IMG/VR virus record: IMGVR_UViG_2706794673_000013
Direction: 5' to 3' (one strand)
From: a virus
Lineage: Duplodnaviria; Heunggongvirae; Uroviricota; Caudoviricetes
DNA length: 47,589 bases
Below, one piece after another: positions 1,553 to 20,593 of the stretch; the stretch's first letter is position 1; every line of letters starts with the position of its first letter. A model generated the notes under the pieces. That model saw only the letters and a program-made list of their open reading frames with translations, did no database searches and was not told where the DNA came from. Both the position numbers and the translations under genes were made by a program.

Positions 1553-1741
1553 TCACGAGGACTGAAGTTTCTCGCAATTAAAATTTATCAGTTTTACTTT
1601 CTGCTCTCTGGAAACGCCTGCTTCTTTTTTACCTGAGAGCATTTTTTCGCATTCTGATTTCGTTAGTTTAGATTTTGAATATCTTGTCCAGTTAGTAGGA
1701 GTGCCACCTTCCTTTTCAATAGTGGCGGTAATTTTATACAT
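1553..1741 (-). CDS. Small hypothetical protein (YdaC-position)
   Basis: 62-aa ORF starting MYKITATIEKEGG; its ATG overlaps the TAA that would end full-length ralR (ATGTATAA arrangement). Confidence 0.5.
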   Translation of the reverse strand: MYKITATIEKEGGTPTNWTRYSKSKLTKSECEKMLSGKKEAGVSREQKVKLINFNCEKLQSS

Positions 1742-11758: not shown

Positions 11759-11957
11759 ACGTTACTAGATCAAAGAGCATTAGTTCATATGTAAATTGAC
11801 ATTTTTCTGGCACAGGGGAGAGCTAGCGTGGTTGTCCGCTTTGTGCCAATAGCGGACATTGCTGGCTCATGGTATGTTAGTTTAAGGAGGCAGGTTATGC
11901 CCTGTATTTCGCTGTGGTATAATAGTTGCGCAATTGATACAAGGGAGCGTTACATCG

Positions 11958-12919
11958 TGAAAATTGTTTTCGAGGTTAATGGAAAGAAAGTTCCACTAAA
12001 ATCTTTAAAATACATAAGCAAAAAAGATCAACTCGAAGTAATGAAAAACTGGTTCTTTGAAAACTTTGAAGATCCGGCAAATGCTTGTCCGTATGAAAGT
12101 AGAGAAGGTGGCTATGCTTACATATATGGCGGGCCGTATGATGCGAGCGAAGAACTACAATCCATCTTCGGTCAATATGTTAAATCTGAGTATATTGAGG
12201 AATTAGTAGATGAATTACAAACACAATGTTTTGACTGGTCTGGAAACTCAAATAATATAGATGATTGGTACGATGATGATATCTACGACGCTGTAACGTC
12301 TTCCGGTAATCCGTATTTAAAATTCATTGATAATATCGATAAAATAAAAAAACTTGCAAAAGATAAAACTGAACAACAGCAAAAAAACCACTTGCTTAGT
12401 TTGCTCTACACGAATGTTATTACAGCTTTGGAAACGCTTTATGTTGAGCTATTCATTAATTCTATAGAGAAAGATGATGTCTACATAGCCAATTGTATAG
12501 AAAAAGGTAAGACTGAATTTAAAGTAAGCAAAGATATTGCTGCGTTGCCTTTCAAGGGTGAACCCATCGAGAAAATTAGGGGAGAGCTAATCAGGTCAAT
12601 CAAGGAACACTTGATCAGTGCAAGCTGGCATAGCACTAAAAAGGTAATCGACCGCTATGAAGCTACATTCGATATAAAAGTACAAAAAGACTGTCCGATA
12701 GAAGCTATTGAATTGGCAACCCTCAATCGAAATCACTTAGTGCATCGTGGTGGAAAGGATAAAGAAGGGAACCTCGTAGTGATTACAGACCAGGATCTTG
12801 AAACGCTGATTGAAAATGCATCGAACCTGGCAATTATGCTCTACAACAGTTTAAATGTAGCAACGAATAAAACCACCATTTTGCAACCAGATGACAAACC
12901 GTTCATTCATGAATTTTAA
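11958..12919 (+). CDS. Hypothetical protein A of AT-rich cassette (candidate defence/abortive-infection protein)
   Basis: About 320 aa from GTG 11958 preceded by AAGGGAG (alternative ATG at about 12041); visibly AT-rich, K/N/I/D-rich codon usage unlike flanking phage genes; R-x4-H motif (RNHLVH) near C-terminus. Confidence 0.55.
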
Positions 12920-12934
12920 TAGCGCAGGTCATAC

Positions 12935-13936
12935 ATGGATATTCGCACACGAAAGACAAAATTTTTAGAGTCGTTAGATTCAACTGAAGTGATACGCAAA
13001 GCAGTAAGTCTCGCTATAGATTGCATTATTGATAATCATAATAGTAATGAAGATACCCCCTTAGTTATTACCAGCTATGATGATCTCTGTAGAATCCAGG
13101 TGCTAAATTATGTACAGGAGTTTTGCGAAGCTGCATTCCCTGATATGGATGAATATTACTTTAGTCCTAACATACTTCGCATCAACGGCAAGACTAGTGA
13201 AGAAGCTTGTATTAACTTAATTAAACTCTTAAGAAGTACAAAAGGCATGCTATTCTGGTCCGATGCCCCATCGTGGTTCGCTAGCCTCCCCGACGGATTA
13301 TTCCATGTTGTTAACATTGATCAAAAAATCGTTACTCGCGGCCTTAATAAGAAAAACTCTAAGCCGACAATAATCAATAAAGATTACAGTGTAGATACAC
13401 TACTATCAGAGCTATTTTTGAATGGCGCACACATGGAGCAACCCAACGTACACAACGTTTCTGAGGGAAACATGAAGTTCTATGATGAATGCCATGCTGG
13501 ATTAATCAGACCAATACCCGCTCCAATAGGCGCGTCATACGATGAAGAGATCACAATTAATTCTCCAGATTGGCAAAAGCTCGCGTGTGTAGCTTTACGC
13601 CGCTATCAGTCGAAGGAATGTCATGACGGAATGCAATGGGATACAACCGATCATGGTTGGACTGATGTAATCGCGTATCCATTCGTCGAAGAAATACAAT
13701 CAATGGATAATAGTGGTTATCGACAATGTTTAGTTGGGCTGGTCACAATAAACAATTCAAATGCAAATTCTCCGTACCTATCTACCGTTTGGATACATCC
13801 ATTTTATCGCAGGAGAGGGTTATTAAGTAAGTTATGGCCAAAATTACAAGAGTTATATGGAAGTAACTTCGAAATTGAGCGACCTAATGAAAATATGAAA
13901 GCATTTCTGAAAAGTGCGAAACACGCAGATTACTAA
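12935..13936 (+). CDS. Hypothetical protein B of AT-rich cassette (possible GNAT-like C-terminal domain)
   Basis: 333-aa ORF 15 nt downstream of protein A, same strand and same AT-rich composition; C-terminal segment CLVGLVTINN...VWIHPFYRRRGLLSKLW resembles the GNAT acetyl-CoA binding motif. Confidence 0.55.
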   Translation: MDIRTRKTKFLESLDSTEVIRKAVSLAIDCIIDNHNSNEDTPLVITSYDDLCRIQVLNYVQEFCEAAFPDMDEYYFSPNILRINGKTSEEACINLIKLLRSTKGMLFWSDAPSWFASLPDGLFHVVNIDQKIVTRGLNKKNSKPTIINKDYSVDTLLSELFLNGAHMEQPNVHNVSEGNMKFYDECHAGLIRPIPAPIGASYDEEITINSPDWQKLACVALRRYQSKECHDGMQWDTTDHGWTDVIAYPFVEEIQSMDNSGYRQCLVGLVTINNSNANSPYLSTVWIHPFYRRRGLLSKLWPKLQELYGSNFEIERPNENMKAFLKSAKHADY

Positions 13937-14895: not shown

Positions 14896-15720
14896 AACCA
14901 CCTCCTCCAAAACATGCATTAAAAATGCATCTTTTGGAGGGTTATGTCAAGCTGTTATGAAACACATAATTGATATGTTGATTAGAGGAGAAGATAGAAT
15001 AAATATGGTTGTTTTTCGTATAACTATTTGTTTTACTTTTAGTTTATGCATTCTGTGTGTTNNNNNNNNNNNNNNNNNNNNNNNNNNNNNNNNNNNNNNN
15101 NNNNNNNNNNNNNNNNNNNNNNNNNNNNNNNNNNNNNNNNNNNNNNNNNNNNNNNNNNNNNNNNNNNNNNNNNNNNNNNNNNNNNNNNNNNNNNNNNNNN
15201 NNNNNNNNNNNNNNNNNNNNNNNNNNNNNNNNNNNNNNNNNNNNNNNNNNNNNNNNNNNNNNNNNNNNNNNNNNNNNNNNNNNNNNNNNNNNNNNNNNNN
15301 NNNNNNNNNNNNNNNNNGAAATATGATTCCAGCAACTTATCATGTGGCTACTTTATAAAAATAATGCCCATATAAAACAACAAGCGAAAAGGATTACGGA
15401 TAAAAAAGGAGCGAGATGTGCGAACTTGTTATTTTCCATGTTTAACCACCTTAAATAATTGATGATGACGGGATGATNNNNNNNNNNNNNNNNNNNNNNN
15501 NNNNNNNNNNNNNNNNNNNNNNNNNNNNNNNNNNNNNNNNNNNNNNNNNNNNNNNNNNNNNNNNNNNNNNNNNNNNNNNNNNNNNNNNNNNNNNNNNNNN
15601 NNNNNNNNNNNNNNNNNNNNNNNNNNNNNNNNNNNNNNNNNNNNNNNNNNNNNNNNNNNNNNNNNNNNNNNNNNNNNNNNNNNNNNNNNNNNNNNNNNNN
15701 NNNNNNNNNNNNNNNNNNNN

Positions 15721-16320: not shown

Positions 16321-16610
16321 TGGTGAATTTACGTAAAGCGGCTAAAGGCCAGATGTGCCAGATCAGAATCCCTGGCTACTGCAATCACAATCCCGAAACC
16401 TCTGTGCTGGCGCATTACAGGCTGGCGGGGACGTGCGGAACAGCGACAAAACCACATGATATGCAGGCGGCGATAGCCTGTAGCTCATGCCACGATCTAA
16501 TCGACGGGCGGGTAAAAACCAGCGATTACACCAAAGAAGAATTGCGCCTGATGCATGCTGAAGGGGTTTTTCGCACACAAGAAATCTGGAGAAAGAAAGG
16601 TCATTTATGA
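16320..16610 (+). CDS. DUF1364-like Cys-rich small protein
   Basis: 96-aa ORF with C/H-rich segments (CQIRIPGYCNH ... CSSCHDLIDGR); overlaps neighbours by 1-4 nt. Confidence 0.55.
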   Translation: MVNLRKAAKGQMCQIRIPGYCNHNPETSVLAHYRLAGTCGTATKPHDMQAAIACSSCHDLIDGRVKTSDYTKEELRLMHAEGVFRTQEIWRKKGHL

Positions 16611-17149
16611 TTTACCCAACGAATACAGGAAAAAGCGGAGAACACCTTCGCCTCACCACGCTGGAAAGTGTCTGGATTCAGGGAAAACTACGTATGTGGG
16701 GGCGCTGGTCGTATATTGGCGGTGGCAGGTCAGGGAATATGTTCAATCAGTTGTTGGCATCCAAAAAACTGACGAAAACAGCCATTAATGAAGCCCTGCG
16801 CAGAATGAAAAAAGCGGGAATAGAGAAAGCTGAGCTGGAAGCGTTTTTGCGAGAGATGATCAACGGCAAGCAAAAGAGCTGGCTGGCGCATTGTACTGAT
16901 GCAGAGGCGTTATGTATTGATCGAGTCATAAGTGAGGTGCTGGCAGAGCATCCAGGATTGATTTGCATTCTCCGGCAACGCTATGAAGGGCGGGGGATGA
17001 CTAAGCGCAAAATGGCTGAATTGCTAAATGATGCACACCCAGAGTGGTGTTTTAGCACATGCGAAAAACGGATTGCTAATTGGTTAGCTGTTGCTGAGTA
17101 TGCCCTATATATTCCCATGCGTGAATCATTTGCTGAGAAAATGGCTTGA
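16607..17149 (+). CDS. Putative late-gene antiterminator (Q-like)
   Basis: 180-aa ORF at the position of Q, directly upstream of intrinsic terminators and the late/lysis genes; family assignment by position and general resemblance only. Confidence 0.55.
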   Translation: MIYPTNTGKSGEHLRLTTLESVWIQGKLRMWGRWSYIGGGRSGNMFNQLLASKKLTKTAINEALRRMKKAGIEKAELEAFLREMINGKQKSWLAHCTDAEALCIDRVISEVLAEHPGLICILRQRYEGRGMTKRKMAELLNDAHPEWCFSTCEKRIANWLAVAEYALYIPMRESFAEKMA

Positions 17150-17229
17150 TTTCTTACGTATAAACTGCTTCAATTTTGCTATGCTTCGCAAAGCTGTATC
17201 GCGAGGCGGATTGCAGACATGGACATCGT

Positions 17230-17257
17230 AAAAAAACCGCTTAATGCGGTTTTTTTA
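17230..17257 (+). terminator. Intrinsic terminator downstream of Q-like gene
   Basis: Hairpin AACCGC-TTAAT-GCGGTT followed by T7; preceded by an A-run (could work in both directions). Confidence 0.6.
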
Positions 17258-17577
17258 CGTCAGGAAAGCAGGGGAGAATGCTGCTAGTTGGGCAACTGGT
17301 CTTTCTGCTCCAAATTATAACAGAGACCAGTTATAGTTTCGGTGCTGTGTTTTTTTTACAATATTGTGATAACACATTGCTGGCGGGAGTTTTGATATTT
17401 CTTGGCAGGGGCTGATGATGCGTTATCCTGATGTCGTCAACTCATATAAAATGAGATGAGAGATCATTGCAGGGTGGTTTGTAATTCGCTGTTTAGCGGG
17501 ACAATATGTTGTCTGATACAAGACACCCGACGCCTCAGATTACTATAATAAAGACGAAGCATCCTTTGTATTGACCA

Positions 17578-17603
17578 ACCGCCTGTTTAGGCGGTTCTTT
17601 TTG
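17578..17603 (+). terminator. Intrinsic terminator (tR'-like) about 30 nt downstream of a TATAAT box
   Basis: Stem ACCGCCT / AGGCGGT with GTTT loop followed by CTTTTT; TATAAT at 17544-17549. Confidence 0.5.
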
Positions 17604-18193
17604 GGCTGGTTTATTGTATGCCAAATGATTATTAAAAAGGTTGTGTTAATAACAAGATCCGAAATAATATGCCTGCATATTTTTATCTTGCTTATATTCT
17701 GCATATTGTGCATAGCAGGCTCATCCCTGCAATCAAAACTGTATGATGAGTATTTTTTGTTTTCCTTTTTTCCAGTCATCTGATGATGACCTGCTTCTTT
17801 TTAATCCGGATCGACATCAGTTTTTTAAGATAATTCCTGCGAGTTATATGCATAAATGCCACAAACTCCGCATTTTATGTGGTTGGGAGTTGCCGGGCGC
17901 GCAGTGAGTTTGCTAAGAAAACTCCTGCATGGTGAATCCCCCTGTGCGGTGGGGTGATACCATTAACCTTTTCTGTCGCCGACAGGTATCACGAACATTT
18001 TGTTCACCGGGAGGCACCCGGCACCATGCACTTCAATAGATTCTCTCCACATTATGGATATTCTTTCAGAATATCCCACGCAGACTTTGTGTAAATGTTA
18101 ACAAATGTGCGTTTTATTTGATCTGATTCGCTGTTTGAGCGTCCAAAACAACGGTATATATAATCCTTTACTATATGACATATGTGAGGAAAA

Positions 18194-18622
18194 ATGGGTT
18201 TTCGTAGCGCATCAATTCTTACGTTGATTATTAGTGGGATTATTATCGGGTGCACTGATGCTGTATCGACAAATTATCATGACCGTACATCATATTACTC
18301 CGATAAAGCAATAGAGACACAGTATGTGAGTTCATCTGAACGTACTTCTGATGTTAGTGAGGATATCCGTCTGTATGCCCATCAAATCAAGAGCGCCATC
18401 GAAAAACAGTTCGGGGATGCGAGTAAGTATTCAGGAAAAGAGTGTACACTGAGAATGCATATGGCCCCGAATGGCCTTCTACTGGAGGTTAAAAGAGAAA
18501 GTGGAGACCTCGATTTATGTCGTGAAGCGATGAATGCGATAAAGAATGCTGATATACCTGCCCCCCCTTCGCCGGAAGTATATAAAGTATTTCAAAATGG
18601 GGTGCTGGATTTTAAACCCTGA
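18194..18622 (+). CDS. Lipoprotein with TolA C-terminal domain (domain III)-like region
   Basis: 142-aa ORF with signal peptide and lipobox (IIIGC); C-terminal 80 aa (IKSAIEKQFGDASKYSGKECTLRMHMAPNGLLLEV...PEVYKVFQNGVLDFKP) closely parallels the C-terminus of E. coli TolA as recalled; SD GAGGA upstream. Confidence 0.75.
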   Translation: MGFRSASILTLIISGIIIGCTDAVSTNYHDRTSYYSDKAIETQYVSSSERTSDVSEDIRLYAHQIKSAIEKQFGDASKYSGKECTLRMHMAPNGLLLEVKRESGDLDLCREAMNAIKNADIPAPPSPEVYKVFQNGVLDFKP

Positions 18623-18772
18623 TATTTATTGTTTTGTAATAAACGGTTTCGGCTTAGGTTTGTTCTGACACAGCTACGGCACTGAGCTAAATTTAGCGGA
18701 TAGTCAGCTCTGAGCCAGTGGCGGACGTAACAACTACTATTGCTGAGATTTTAATGGATTGAGGAGCAAGAA

Positions 18773-19168
18773 GTGGGATTAAAGAAAATCGTTATGTTGA
18801 CTTTTTGGGTCGGTTTTGTTGCGGGATGCACACCTTTACACCCTTCAGATTGCCACAAAACTACTGCTACAGGTAGTTGCAGTTCAGGACGCTGGGATGA
18901 TCAGGATGAATGGGGGGCGCAAGCGCGGGGAATCAGAGCTGCAATTAATGCCAAACTTGATGAGCCGCATAACTGGAAAGGGAAAAAATGCAGGTTGCAT
19001 ATGGAATTCTCTCAGGATGGCACGGCGTTAAAAATATCTACCAGTAACGGTGATAAAGCCTATTGCGAAGCGATAAAGTCCGCAGCTCATAAAGCCAAAT
19101 TTCCGGCCTTCAACAATCCGGAAGTCTACAGAGATTTTCAGAAATCTGGCTTTGACATGCGAGGTTAG
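18773..19168 (+). CDS. Lipoprotein, paralogue with TolA-CTD-like fold
   Basis: 131-aa GTG-initiated ORF (SD GAGGAG), lipobox FVAGC; C-terminal region aligns with the upstream lipoprotein (KKCRLHMEFSQDGTALKIS...CEAIKSAAHKAKFPAFNNPEVYRDFQKSGFD). Confidence 0.65.
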   Translation: MGLKKIVMLTFWVGFVAGCTPLHPSDCHKTTATGSCSSGRWDDQDEWGAQARGIRAAINAKLDEPHNWKGKKCRLHMEFSQDGTALKISTSNGDKAYCEAIKSAAHKAKFPAFNNPEVYRDFQKSGFDMRG

Positions 19169-19419
19169 CTCTTCAATTACTATATCTCATTCATAGCAAA
19201 CTGACAGATTTGATGATGTTCTATATACGAAACCTGTGATGTCAAGTCTGAGCTAATACAAATAAACATAATATCAGAGAAATACATTTTATTAGCTCGC
19301 TACGGCGAGCTTTTTATATTGCATCGTCTCCAGCATATATATCAATTAAGGCTCTGATTGATGTGTCTGAAAGCCTACACATAATAACTATGCCATCCGT
19401 TCCGTGCGGAGGTGAGGCT

Positions 19420-19635
19420 ATGAAATCCATGGACAAAATTTCAACAGGCATTGCCTACGGCACCTCCGCAGGCAGTGCTGGCTACTGGTTTTTACAGTTG
19501 CTCGATAGAGTAACTCCGTCACAGTGGGCTGCAATCGGTGTGCTGGGTAGTCTGGTATTTGGCCTGCTGACGTACCTGACAAACCTTTATTTCAAGATTA
19601 AAGAAGATAAGCGCAAGGCTGCGAGAGGTGAATAA
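19420..19635 (+). CDS. Class II pinholin (S21/EssD-like) with dual-start motif
   Basis: 71-aa product [29 protein letters not shown]... with two TMDs; Met1 and Met4 give the antiholin/holin dual start; SD GGAGGTGAGG. Confidence 0.85.
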
Positions 19636-20132
19636 TGCCTCCATCATTACGAAAAGTCGTTGCTGCTGCTATTGGTGGCGGAGCAATTGCTATAGCATCA
19701 GTGTTAATCACTGGCCCAAGTGGTAACGATGGTCTGGAAGGTGTCAGCTACATACCATACAAAGATATTGTTGGTGTATGGACTGTATGTCACGGGCATA
19801 CAGGAAAAGACATCATGCTCGGTAAAACGTATACCAAAGCAGAATGCAAAACACTCTTGAATAAAGACCTTGCCACTGTCGCCAGACAAATTAACCCGTA
19901 CATCAAAGTCGATATACCGGAAACAACGCGCGGCGCTCTTTACTCATTCGTTTACAACGTGGGTGCTGGCAATTTCAGAACATCGACGCTTCTTCGCAAA
20001 ATAAACCAGGGCGATATCAAAGGCGCATGTGATCAGCTACGTCGCTGGACATATGCTGGCGGTAAGCAATGGAAAGGTCTCATGACTCGTCGTGAGATTG
20101 AGCGTGAAATCTGTTTGTGGGGTCAGCAATGA
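19635..20132 (+). CDS. SAR endolysin (lysozyme, R21-like)
   Basis: 165-aa ORF with N-terminal signal-anchor-release segment ([20 protein letters not shown]) and lysozyme-like core; ATG overlaps holin stop (TAATG). Confidence 0.85.
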
Positions 20133-20593
20133 ACAGAGTAACCGCGATTATCTCCGCTCTGGTTATCTGCATCATCGTCTGCCTGTCATGGGCTGTTAAT
20201 CATTACCGTGATAACGCCATTACCTACAAAGCCCAGCGCGACAAAAATGCCAGAGAACTGAAGCTGGCGAACGCGGCAATTACTGACATGCAGATGCGTC
20301 AGCGTGATGTTGCTGCGCTCGATGCAAAATACACGAAGGAGTTAGCTGATGCGAAAGCTGAAAATGATGCTCTGCGTGATGATGTTGCCGCTGGTCGTCG
20401 TCGGTTGCACATCAAAGCAGTCTGTCAGTCAGTGCGTGAAGCCACCACCGCCTCCGGCGTGGATAATGCAGCCTCCCCCCGACTGGCAGACACCGCTGAA
20501 CGGGATTATTTCACCCTCCGGGAACGACTGGTAATGATGCAGGCCCAACTTGAAGGTGCTCAGCAATACATAACCGAGCAGTGTTTAAAGTAA
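20129..20593 (+). CDS. i-spanin (Rz)
   Basis: 154-aa product from ATG overlapping endolysin stop; N-terminal TMD plus coiled-coil periplasmic domain. Confidence 0.8.
20349..20534 (+). CDS. o-spanin (Rz1), embedded in +1 frame of Rz
   Basis: 61-aa ORF wholly inside Rz in another frame; signal peptide, lipobox (VVGC) and Pro-rich mature part ([15 protein letters not shown]). Confidence 0.7.

What the first reader, a model, noticed from the sequence alone, without database searches (positions are those of the whole stretch)
17150..18193. About 1 kb non-coding region downstream of the Q-like gene with multiple hairpin terminators and a TATAAT box
This region has a bidirectional-looking terminator (17230-17257), a long inverted repeat (AACTGGTCT ... 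AGACCAGTT at about 17294-17332) followed by a T8 run, and a TATAAT box (17544-17549) about 30 nt upstream of another hairpin terminator (17578-17603). The arrangement resembles a late promoter with a short terminated leader (pR'/tR' and qut logic), but the region is long enough to encode additional small RNAs.
Basis: seen in the sequence. Interest (0 to 1): 0.35.

Follow-up and report, generated by a model that had tools for sequence, protein, structure and literature searches.

The report
Prophage late-gene leader with Q21-type promoter
This 1 kb stretch is the ordinary untranslated leader of a Rac-like prophage's late genes: a phage-21-type late promoter with a pause site and terminator sits directly after the antiterminator gene, followed by further terminators and a known prophage small RNA (STnc100).

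Summary
The general idea is right: a late promoter with a short terminated leader, plus room for small RNAs. The promoter assignment is wrong.

The Q-linked cassette starts at the stop codon of the upstream gene. That gene is a DUF1133 protein, shown here to be a phage 21 Q homologue. The cassette reads: -35 TTGATT (17146-51), 17 bp, TTCAAT (17169-74), 5 bp, TGcTATGCT (17177-85), a conserved initial transcribed stretch to 17208, then the strong terminator 17227-59. TATGCT matches the pause element annotated for phage 21 (TAAGCT). The three-part motif occurs exactly once in the window (0 expected) and once in 28 of the 32 full-length DUF1133 loci from other Enterobacteriaceae.

The TATAAT at 17544 with hairpin 17577-17603 belongs to a mosaic leader backbone shared with prophages that carry other Q genes. 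Its -10 is not conserved.

A third terminator unit lies at 17772-17802. Positions 17897-18083 are a clear member of Rfam STnc100 (86.6 bits), related to PasD.

The 17294-17332 repeat with its T8 run is not supported as a terminator.

Verdict: an ordinary late leader and a new member of a known kind.

The parts
16607..17149 (+). Q-like antiterminator gene (DUF1133 / AntQ type, 180 aa), a distant homologue of phage 21 Q
   Evidence: Pfam PF06576 at E 2.5e-107, and PF06530 (Phage_antitermQ) at 26.1 bits against a cut-off of 26. hhalign of the DUF1133 profile against phage 21 Q gives 93.6% probability, E 2.2e-7, over 135 columns covering Q21 residues 6-153. A survey of Stx phages lists DUF1133 as 'Q antiterminator HHPred' (PMC8136144). 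AF2/Foldseek was inconclusive.
17146..17151 (+). -35 element TTGATT of the late promoter, overlapping the TGA stop codon of the Q-like gene
   Evidence: A TTGnnn hexamer lies 17 bp upstream of the TTnAAT hexamer in 28 loci. This holds whether the unit lies inside the Q coding end, just after it, or 0.6-0.9 kb downstream.
17152..17168 (+). 17-bp spacer, the position of the Q-binding element (QBE) in phage 21. The 3' half, AAACTGC, resembles the conserved RRAAAsTGC of related loci.
   Evidence: The phage 21 record places QBEu ATTGAGCA and QBEd AATGAGCA in this spacer. Eleven related DUF1133 loci carry AnTGAGCm directly after the -35. The window does not, so its QBE is not identified.
17169..17174 (+). 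Weak -10 hexamer TTCAAT. Predicted start site about 17179-17181.
   Evidence: TT[ACG]A[AC]T is conserved at a fixed 5-nt distance from the next hexamer in 28 loci. It lacks the usual A at position 2, so the register is uncertain.
17177..17185 (+). TGcTATGCT: -10-like sigma-dependent pause element (SDPE) at about +1 to +6 of the late transcript
   Evidence: TAnGCT is nearly invariant (TAn[G/C]CT in every matching locus) across loci whose Q proteins are 52-99% identical. The phage 21 record OL657228 annotates its SDPE as TAAGCTG at +2 to +8. The full three-part pattern matches once in the window, with 0.00 expected from 100 shuffles.
17186..17208 (+). Conserved initial transcribed region (TCGCAAAGCTGTATCGCGAGGCG). 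The predicted 5' hairpin pairs 17183-17189 with 17201-17207.
   Evidence: The same sequence is found in L003, L006, L008, L010, L012, L015, L021, L026 and L033. In hundreds of other E. coli genomes, homology to the window ends at 17208 (query 1-59). Fold.
17227..17259 (.). tR'-like intrinsic terminator, symmetric and so bidirectional. It would end a leader RNA of about 76 nt.
   Evidence: -19.7 kcal/mol, z = -8.3. The script found an intrinsic terminator 64-113 nt after the pause hexamer in 25 of the 27 related loci where it located the motif (one further value was a mis-anchored match). A weak full-length but sub-threshold isrK model hit covers 17183-17256 (21.6 bits, E 0.077).
17294..17357 (+). 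9-nt inverted repeat (17294-17302 / 17324-17332) and T8 run (17350-17357). Not supported as a terminator.
   Evidence: z = -1.15. The 5' arm is absent from homologues and the T run is 17 nt from the stem. In related phages tRNA genes sit just upstream of this point.
17376..17440 (+). Conserved leader block (GCTGGCGGGAGTTTTGATATTTCTTGGCAGGGGCTGATGATG...). Function unknown.
   Evidence: 72-84% identical in L003, L037, L038, L039, L040 and viral contigs, always downstream of tRNA arrays. The mini-ORF that starts here (MRYPDVVN...) varies from 11 to 55 codons.
17520..17602 (+). Unit 2: promoter-like AAGACA-18-TATAAT (17520-17549), conserved CATCCTTTGTATTGACC, and a terminator hairpin 17577-17596 with T5 at 17598-17602
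   Evidence: The terminator and the preceding 17 nt are conserved in L037, L003 and L038. The -10 is not conserved in L037 or L003.
17702..17802 (+). Unit 3: -10-like CATATT (17702-07), 5' hairpin GCAGG/CCTGC (17715-30), an A/U-rich stretch, and a terminator hairpin 17775-17790 with a T-rich tail to 17802
   Evidence: Conserved in L038, L040 and L039. Those relatives have TTGTTA-17/18-TATnTT and a 9-bp stem. L039 keeps the hairpin with different arms (GCCAGCCA/TGGCTGGC). The window copy has a shorter, 6-bp stem. There is no Rfam hit and no conserved ORF.
17897..18083 (+). STnc100-family RNA (RF02076). Closing helix 17927-34/18022-29; hairpins 17938-54 and 18007-21.
   Evidence: 86.6 bits against a gathering score of 47, E 2.7e-17. 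The closing helix shows compensatory changes in 4 of 8 pairs across 13 copies. It is related to the EPEC sRNA PasD.
18078..18127 (+). Weak hairpin followed by UUUUAUUU, a possible 3' end of the STnc100-like RNA
   Evidence: Fold (z = -1.9 for the 96-nt stretch). The GC-rich terminator of the Rfam model is replaced here by an AT-rich hairpin at 18056-18076 with no U tail.
18135..18164 (+). Sigma70-like promoter TTGAGC-18-TATAAT for the TolA-C lipoprotein genes (a moron promoter). It ends the non-coding region.
   Evidence: 10 of 12 consensus matches. It lies in a module (18003-18193) that is 100% identical in many prophages and in phage mEp460. The genes have the TolA C-terminal domain.

Best explanation
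The region is the untranslated leader of the late operon of a Rac-family lambdoid prophage.

Its first 110 nt are the regulatory cassette of the upstream Q21-like antiterminator. The cassette is a constitutive sigma70 promoter (-35 TTGATT, 17 bp, TTCAAT). It is followed at about +1 by a strong -10-like element (TGcTATGCT). That element should recapture sigma70 and pause RNA polymerase. A conserved initial transcribed stretch comes next, and then the strong terminator at 17227-17259.

In the lysogen, transcripts should stop there and give an RNA of about 76 nt. After induction, the Q-like protein should load on the paused polymerase. The modified polymerase should then read through this terminator and the next ones (17577-17602, 17775-17802, 19294-19317). 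It would go on to transcribe the TolA-like genes, holin, endolysin and spanins.

The remaining 900 nt are a mosaic leader backbone shared with other lambdoid prophages. In those relatives, tRNA genes, toxin genes and other cargo are inserted into it. In the window it carries two small promoter-like/terminator units and one STnc100-family RNA.

Shown: the homology of the protein to Q21, the conserved three-part DNA motif and its terminator, the mosaic boundaries, and STnc100 membership. Inferred: the start site, the pausing, the Q loading, the read-through, and any trans-acting role of the short RNAs.
For: - Protein. The DUF1133 profile aligns with phage 21 Q over nearly its whole length (93.6%, E 2.2e-7). 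PF06530 scores at its threshold.
- Motif. TTGnnn-17-TTnAmT-5-TAnsCT occurs once in the window with 0.00 expected. It occurs once in each of 28 of 32 full-length DUF1133 loci whose proteins are 52-99% identical. Three more loci carry variants with a 4-nt gap or an altered hexamer.
- Portability. The unit keeps its internal spacing in four settings: inside the coding end of Q, 30-50 nt after it, and 0.6-0.9 kb downstream behind inserted hok/sok (L010) or isrK/C4 (L008) modules.
- Match to phage 21. The annotated phage 21 genome gives -35, QBE in the spacer, -10, start site, SDPE TAAGCTG at +2 and a terminator. This is the same order, with the same pause hexamer family. Eleven loci also carry a QBEu-like AnTGAGCm after the -35.
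- Terminator. An intrinsic terminator follows within 64-113 nt in 25 of the 27 loci where the script located the motif. In the window it folds at -19.7 kcal/mol, z = -8.3.
- Modularity. Homology to hundreds of other E. coli prophages ends at 17208, so the cassette segregates with Q while the rest is exchangeable.
- Late genes. Lysis genes follow on the same strand.
- Small RNA. STnc100 scores 86.6 bits with a covarying closing helix.
- Canonical layout. The cassette layout is taken from bioRxiv 10.1101/651190. Constitutive pR' with a terminated short RNA in lysogens is described in PMC7547250.
Against: - There are no expression data for this sequence.
- The proposed -10 (TTCAAT) lacks the near-universal A at position 2. 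In related loci that position varies with the TAA/TGA stop codon. So TGcTATGCT could itself be an extended -10 promoter rather than a pause element.
- The window's spacer has no recognisable Q21-type direct repeat, so the Q-binding site is not identified.
- The structure model of the protein was poor (pLDDT 62). Foldseek put Q21 first, but at E = 1.4.
- Nearly all E. coli copies of the full region are over 99% identical. Conservation inside E. coli therefore says little about function for units 2 and 3.
Confidence: 0.8

Rival explanations
1. One reading: TATAAT 17544-17549 is the Q-dependent late promoter, and the hairpin 17577-17603 is its tR', giving a leader of about 47 nt.
For: It is a good consensus match: AAGACA-18-TATAAT, 10 of 12. 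A real terminator follows about 28 nt later (-13 kcal/mol). The terminator and the 17 nt before it are conserved in L037, L003 and L038.
Against: The unit lies 0.4 kb from the Q-like gene. In other prophages it sits 0.8 kb downstream of the Q-linked cassette, beyond tRNA arrays. The -10 is not kept in L037 or L003. There is no -10-like repeat in its first 25 transcribed nt. The unit that does co-vary with the DUF1133 gene is 17146-17208.
Confidence: 0.06
2. TGcTATGCT is the true promoter, of the extended -10 type, with a start near 17192. TTGATT...TTCAAT would then be something else, for example the binding site of the Q-like protein. The cassette would still be the late promoter but with a different geometry.
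For: TAnGCT keeps T1, A2 and T6, the key -10 positions. TG sits at the extended -10 position in the window and in most class B loci. The upstream hexamer lacks A at position 2.
Against: Under this reading no TAnnnT pause element follows in the transcribed region of any class. All studied Q cassettes have one. Phage 21 uses TAAGCT as its pause element at +2, not as its -10. A TTGnnn hexamer at exactly 17 bp from TTnAAT is kept even where the unit has moved out of the coding region.
Confidence: 0.18
3. Units 2 and 3 and STnc100 are autonomous small-RNA genes expressed in the lysogen, not passive terminators and leader backbone. This can be true alongside the main explanation.
For: STnc100 relatives are expressed, Hfq-associated RNAs: EcOnc27/sRNA103 (PMC12711010) and PasD, confirmed by Northern blot (PMC8550237). 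Unit 3 has sRNA architecture, and its relatives have a good promoter (TTGTTA-17/18-TATnTT) and a terminator with compensatory arm changes. Unit 2 has a consensus -10 in the window and in L038.
Against: No consensus promoter precedes the window's STnc100 copy, and its model terminator is replaced by an AT-rich hairpin. The window's unit 3 has a weakened -35, -10 and stem. The unit 2 -10 is not conserved. Neither unit matches any Rfam family or the Pas sRNA loci of E2348/69.
Confidence: 0.3
4. The region hides unannotated small protein-coding genes, for example the hydrophobic 52-aa ORF at 17625-17783 or the mini-ORF at 17418.
For: The 52-aa ORF has a membrane-like segment. The first 8 codons of the mini-ORF show mostly third-position differences among 5 variants.
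Against: There is no Pfam hit. Frames are broken by stops and 1-2-nt indels in homologues 76-83% identical. Mini-ORF length varies from 11 to 55 codons. No gene is annotated under the match in any of the about 70 listed full-length copies. The 'hypothetical protein' elsewhere is a minus-strand pseudogene call lying over STnc100.
Confidence: 0.03

Closest known systems
Phage 21 late regulatory cassette (Q21, pR'21, QBE, SDPE, tR')
   Same: The Q protein is homologous. The cassette starts within a few nt of the Q stop codon. The order is the same: -35, 17-bp spacer, -10, start site, TAnGCT pause hexamer at about +1/+2, intrinsic terminator, then lysis genes. Related loci even share QBEu-like ATTGAGCA/AATGAGCA.
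   Different: The protein is only about 24% identical and has an insertion of about 29 residues. The window's spacer has no Q21-type direct repeat. The gap between -10 and pause hexamer is 5 nt, not 7. The leader is about 76 nt against about 50 nt. About 2 kb of leader and moron genes precede the holin, instead of two tRNAs and 0.3 kb.
Lambda pR'-qut-tR' with 6S RNA, and the Stx-phage short pR' transcript StxS
   Same: A constitutive late promoter is terminated immediately downstream in the lysogen, giving a short RNA. A -10-like element sits at the start of the transcript. Antitermination by Q turns on the late genes (lambda details from textbook knowledge).
   Different: The Q family is different and there is no sequence similarity. 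No evidence exists that the window's short RNA binds Hfq or acts in trans as StxS does.
Gifsy-1 antQ-isrK locus of Salmonella (PMC4825925)
   Same: In L008, a protein 84% identical to the window's lies directly upstream of an isrK match. That is the position the paper gives for AntQ, which it reports as an antiterminator whose toxicity is rescued by Rho.
   Different: IsrK is not the counterpart of the window's leader. In L008 and L004 it belongs to a P1 immI-like isrK/C4 module placed after the Q gene, and in L008 the Q21-type promoter unit lies 0.85 kb further on. The window scores only 21.6 bits against isrK, whose cut-off is 50.
STnc100 (Rfam RF02076) / EcOnc27 / PasD prophage sRNAs
   Same: 17897-18083 matches the full model at 86.6 bits, with the invariant GGUGAAUCCCCC...GGGG and CACCGGGAGGCACCCGGCACCA core. 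It occupies the usual position between the Q gene and the lysis genes.
   Different: It is a single copy, whereas some prophages have arrays of four. It lacks the GC-rich terminator of the model and has no clear promoter of its own. Its function is unknown even for the family.

Membership tests
Q-dependent late regulatory cassette, Q21 type | Upstream gene encodes a Q21-family antiterminator | tested here: met
   hhalign gives 93.6% probability, E 2.2e-7, over Q21 residues 6-153. PF06530 scores 26.1 bits against a cut-off of 26. Foldseek was inconclusive.
Q-dependent late regulatory cassette, Q21 type | Sigma70 promoter directly downstream of the Q gene | tested here: inconclusive
   TTGATT-17-TTCAAT at 17146-17174 is conserved in position and spacing in 28 loci. 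The -10 lacks A at position 2, and there is no transcript mapping.
Q-dependent late regulatory cassette, Q21 type | Sigma-dependent pause element (-10-like hexamer) in the first transcribed bases | tested here: met
   TATGCT at 17180-85. The annotated phage 21 SDPE is TAAGCTG. The hexamer is TAn[G/C]CT in every matching locus, TAnGCT in nearly all. Pausing itself was not tested.
Q-dependent late regulatory cassette, Q21 type | Q-binding element: two direct 8-bp subsites in the -35/-10 spacer | tested here: inconclusive
   The window's spacer, TCTTACGTATAAACTGC, has no such repeat. Eleven related loci carry AnTGAGCm. The 3' half, AAAsTGC, is shared.
Q-dependent late regulatory cassette, Q21 type | Intrinsic terminator shortly after the pause site, with late (lysis) genes beyond it on the same strand | tested here: met
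   Terminator 17227-59. Holin, endolysin and spanin genes lie at 19420-20593.
Q-dependent late regulatory cassette, Q21 type | Q-dependent read-through of the terminator | not testable with these tools
   Needs reporter assays or in vitro transcription.
STnc100 (RF02076) | Covariance-model score above the curated gathering score over the full model | tested here: met
   86.6 bits against 47, model positions 1-206.
STnc100 (RF02076) | Closing helix and two invariant hairpins of the core | tested here: met
   All are present. The closing helix shows changes on both sides in 4 of 8 pairs across 13 copies.
STnc100 (RF02076) | GC-rich terminator hairpin with U tail at the 3' end | tested here: not met
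   It is replaced by the AT-rich hairpin 18056-76 with no U tail. A weak hairpin plus UUUUAUUU follows at 18078-18127.
IsrK (RF01394) | Covariance-model score above the gathering score | tested here: not met
   17183-17256 scores 21.6 bits against 50, E 0.077.
Pas sRNAs of EPEC (PasA, PasB, PasC) | Sequence similarity to the E2348/69 loci | tested here: not met
   blastn (word size 7) of 17100-19450 against the PasA, PasB and PasC loci gives no match, apart from STnc100-like pieces.

The most novel reading that the evidence does not exclude
DUF1133 (AntQ-type) antiterminators form a distinct sub-branch of the Q21 family, with recognition determinants of their own. On this reading, the conserved initial transcribed sequence (TCGCAAAGCTGTATCGCGAGGCG here; other classes elsewhere) starts inside the pause hexamer and can form a hairpin. 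It would be part of the loading signal, or it would make the 76-nt terminated RNA a trans-acting regulator in lysogens, as StxS is. Units 2 and 3 and STnc100 would then make the leader a chain of small-RNA cassettes expressed from the silent prophage.
Probability: 0.2. Interest if true: 0.5.

Novelty: new member of a known kind. Interest (0 to 1): 0.25.

Why it matters
The work places the late promoter, pause site and terminator for a widespread but poorly annotated antiterminator family. RefSeq calls the gene 'DUF1133 family protein'; about 450 of the 5,426 complete E. coli genomes carry this exact leader, and relatives occur across Enterobacteriaceae.

It ties that family to the structurally solved Q21 system. 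That gives a concrete, testable map for induction of Rac-like prophages.

It also suggests that, at least in the Gifsy-like Salmonella locus L008, the IsrK promoter is not the Q-linked late promoter.

Otherwise the region is what a specialist would expect between Q and the lysis genes.

Tried and rejected
- AlphaFold2 on an 18-sequence alignment gave a poor model (pLDDT 61.7). Foldseek against the PDB ranked Q21 (6jnx_P) first, but at E = 1.4 and TM 0.16-0.20, which is unusable. phmmer against PDB sequences gave only a 27-residue N-terminal match to Q21 at E 0.27.
- I first took IsrK to be the leader of 'class D' loci. I rejected this when the isrK/C4/a1b1 hits showed a P1 immI-like insert and the Q21-type unit turned up downstream in L008.
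- Megablast and distant blastn of the middle part against 50,697 phage genomes found nothing.
- An exact-pattern scan of viral contigs for the 17376-17440 block returned 66 loci but only 10 distinct cores, including two chance matches. That is too little diversity for covariation analysis.
- A sigma54 reading of TGGCAGGGGCTGATG was rejected by eye: the GG-GC spacing is off by one.
- The 52-aa and 78-aa ORFs and the MRYPDVVN mini-ORF were rejected as genes.
- Comparison with the PasA, PasB and PasC loci of E2348/69 was negative.
- A hairpin in the initial transcribed region is possible in most classes but is not kept in L033 and shows no clean covariation (by eye). I did not pursue it.
Full report
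CONTEXT. The window is a Rac-family lambdoid prophage of E. coli. Rfam finds the RalA antitoxin RNA at 1557-1735. trkG follows the lysis genes. The finding lies between a 180-aa gene (16607-17149) and a TolA-C-terminal-domain lipoprotein gene (18194-18622). Holin, endolysin and spanin genes follow at 19420-20593 on the same strand. The same 1,044 nt are present at 99% identity or more in 446 of 5,426 complete E. coli genomes. Nothing is annotated under the match in any of the about 70 full-length copies listed.

OBSERVATION CHECK.
- Terminator 17227-17259 is a perfect 14-nt inverted repeat. It folds at -19.7 kcal/mol on the + strand and -19.5 on the - strand, z = -8.3 and -6.7.
- Hairpin 17577-17596 followed by a run of five T is a standard terminator, and TATAAT 17544-49 has AAGACA 18 nt upstream.
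- The AACTGGTCT/AGACCAGTT repeat folds no better than shuffled sequence (z = -1.15). Its T8 run starts 17 nt after the stem. Its 5' arm is missing in homologous leaders. I do not count it as a terminator.
- Promoter-like sites as a class are not clearly enriched: 11 against 6.9 +/- 2.4.

THE UPSTREAM GENE IS A Q21 HOMOLOGUE. Pfam gives DUF1133 (E 2.5e-107) and, exactly at threshold, Phage_antitermQ PF06530 (26.1 bits). A profile of 18 DUF1133 proteins aligns with phage 21 Q over Q21 residues 6-153 at 93.6% probability, E 2.2e-7. The DUF1133 side carries an insertion of about 29 residues. A survey of Stx phages lists the family as 'Q antiterminator (HHPred)' (PMC8136144). In the Salmonella locus L008, the gene directly upstream of an isrK match encodes a protein 84% identical to the window's. 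That position corresponds to AntQ of Gifsy-1, which was reported to interfere with termination. Structure prediction was too poor to add anything.

THE Q-LINKED LATE CASSETTE IS 17146-17259. I fetched 35 loci encoding DUF1133 homologues from one genome per species: Escherichia, Shigella, Salmonella, Citrobacter, Klebsiella, Enterobacter, Pantoea and others, 52-99% identical. Thirty-two of them hold a full-length gene.
- In 28 of these 32 there is exactly one match to TTGnnn-N17-TTnAmT-N5-TAnsCT. Three more loci carry variants with a 4-nt gap or an altered hexamer.
- The pattern matches once in the 47.6-kb window, at 17146-17185, with 0.00 expected from shuffles.
- The unit keeps its internal spacing in four settings. 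In most loci the -35 and the first hexamer lie inside the coding end of Q. In the window type they lie 0-30 nt after the stop codon. In L021 and L026 they lie about 50 nt after it. In L010 and L008 they lie 0.6-0.9 kb downstream, behind inserted hok/sok or isrK/C4 modules.
- The script found an intrinsic terminator 64-113 nt after the second hexamer in 25 of the 27 loci where it located the motif; one further value was a mis-anchored match.

The annotated genome of phage 21 (OL657228) settles what these elements are. After the Q21 stop codon it lists -35 TTGACA, QBEu ATTGAGCA and QBEd AATGAGCA in the 17-bp spacer, the -10, the start site, the sigma-dependent pause element TAAGCTG at +2 to +8, a terminator, two tRNAs and the holin. 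The second hexamer of the DUF1133 loci (TAAGCT, TAGGCT, TATGCT) is therefore the counterpart of the Q21 pause element. Eleven loci even carry AnTGAGCm directly after the -35.

In the window the parts are:
- -35 TTGATT at 17146-51, overlapping the TGA stop codon;
- the spacer at 17152-68;
- TTCAAT at 17169-74;
- TGcTATGCT at 17177-85;
- the conserved stretch TCGCAAAGCTGTATCGCGAGGCG, running to 17208;
- the terminator at 17227-59.

Homology to hundreds of other E. coli prophages stops at 17208 (query 1-59), and so does L003. The cassette therefore segregates with Q while everything after it is exchangeable. The predicted lysogen product is an RNA of about 76 nt with a 5' hairpin (17183-89 paired with 17201-07) and the terminator. 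It draws a full-length but insignificant isrK model hit (21.6 bits, E 0.077).

UNCERTAINTIES IN THE CASSETTE. The first hexamer lacks A at position 2. In class B loci that position flips with the TAA/TGA stop codon. So TGcTATGCT could itself be an extended -10 promoter. I give that variant about 0.18, for two reasons. No TAnnnT element would then follow in the transcript. And a TTGnnn hexamer is kept at exactly 17 bp from the first hexamer even outside coding sequence. Separately, the window's spacer has no Q21-type direct repeat, so the binding site of the protein is not identified.

THE REST OF THE LEADER IS A SHARED MOSAIC BACKBONE. Distant blastn finds collinear homologues, 70-94% identical, in other prophage late leaders. 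One follows a different, annotated Q gene (L039). One follows a DNA methyltransferase gene (L040). Two follow DUF1133 genes (L037, L003). In L038 no Q gene lies in the fetched stretch. In all of them except L038 the homologous stretch lies downstream of tRNA arrays that the window lacks. Within it:
(i) A block at 17376-17440 is conserved. Its mini-ORF varies from 11 to 55 codons.
(iii) A third unit spans 17702-17802, with a 5' hairpin, an A/U-rich stretch and a terminator. Relatives have a good promoter (TTGTTA-17/18-TATnTT) and a 9-bp stem. L039 keeps the hairpin with different arms. The window copy has a 6-bp stem and weaker hexamers.
No reading frame is conserved across 17600-17810, the stretch that holds unit 3 and the two longest local ORFs. 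Nothing in units 2 or 3 matches Rfam at E <= 1 or the PasA, PasB or PasC loci of E2348/69.

STnc100. Positions 17897-18083 match Rfam RF02076 over the whole model: 86.6 bits against a gathering score of 47. Across 13 copies the closing helix (17927-34 with 18022-29) shows compensatory changes in 4 of 8 pairs. The two core hairpins are invariant. Some prophages carry arrays of four copies. The EPEC sRNA PasD2 scores 41 bits, which fits the relationship reported in bioRxiv 10.64898/2026.05.13.724894. Relatives are expressed, Hfq-associated RNAs (PMC12711010, PMC8550237). The function of the family is not known. The window copy lacks the GC-rich terminator of the model and has no consensus promoter of its own. 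Here it may simply be part of the read-through late transcript. The 'hypothetical protein' annotated over this spot in other genomes is a minus-strand pseudogene call.

END OF THE REGION. TTGAGC-18-TATAAT at 18135-64 precedes the TolA-like gene. It lies in a module that is 100% identical in many prophages and in phage mEp460. With the terminator at 19294-19317, it frames a two-gene moron between the leader and the holin.

VERDICT. The region is an ordinary late-operon leader. The useful new piece is the placement of a Q21-type promoter, pause and terminator cassette behind DUF1133 genes. That makes it a new member of a known kind, and all mechanistic steps beyond sequence anatomy remain inferred.

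Noticed in passing
window 15062-15317, 15478-15720 and 11 further runs between 29401 and 44686: There are thirteen runs of N, each 243-358 nt. The first coincides with the Hok/Gef gene of the near-identical locus L001. These look like deliberate masking, not sequence gaps.
   Followed up: partly
window 18135-19317: Two tandem lipoprotein genes with a TolA C-terminal domain (18194-18622, 18773-19168; PF06519) have their own sigma70-like promoter and a terminator at 19294-19317. This is a moron between the late leader and the holin. It may act in exclusion of Tol-dependent phages or colicins.
   Followed up: partly
L040 2810-3925; L038 817-1030 and 2936-4293: STnc100 occurs four times in each of these two prophage loci. 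In L040 the four copies are consecutive. In L038 three are spread around a tolA-like gene and one lies upstream. Copies are about 200 nt long, and several have their own GC-rich terminator. The core has a four-arm layout: an 8-bp closing helix, a 4-bp hairpin whose loop contains GG, a variable arm, and a 5-bp hairpin that abuts the 3' strand. By eye this resembles a cloverleaf. ARAGORN finds no tRNA or tmRNA in the window, and no tRNA-model match at E <= 1 covers 17100-19450.
   Followed up: partly
L008 4588-4768 and 5390-5429; L004 4575-4776: In the Salmonella and E. coli loci where isrK follows the DUF1133 (AntQ-type) gene, isrK overlaps Rfam c4-a1b1 and is followed by C4 antisense RNA. That is a P1 immI-like module. 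In L008 the Q21-type late promoter unit lies 0.85 kb further downstream. So the IsrK promoter is probably not the Q-linked late promoter.
   Followed up: partly
L003, L006, L026, L029, L033, L037, L039, L040, L109, L110 (downstream of the Q gene or its terminator): tRNA arrays of one to four genes sit between tR' and the shared leader backbone in many relatives, and in phage 21 itself. The window has none. The homology break is near 17260-17310.
   Followed up: partly
window 11828-13936: Two plus-strand ORFs of 363 and 333 aa with no obvious function lie between the DUF977 gene and the masked hok region. The near-identical locus L001 instead carries a second 'antiterminator Q family' gene and two minus-strand genes in the stretch upstream of its hok gene. 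This looks like a cargo hot spot.
   Followed up: no
window 1557-1735: A full-length RalA antitoxin RNA (RF02694, 225 bits) marks the prophage as Rac-like.
   Followed up: no
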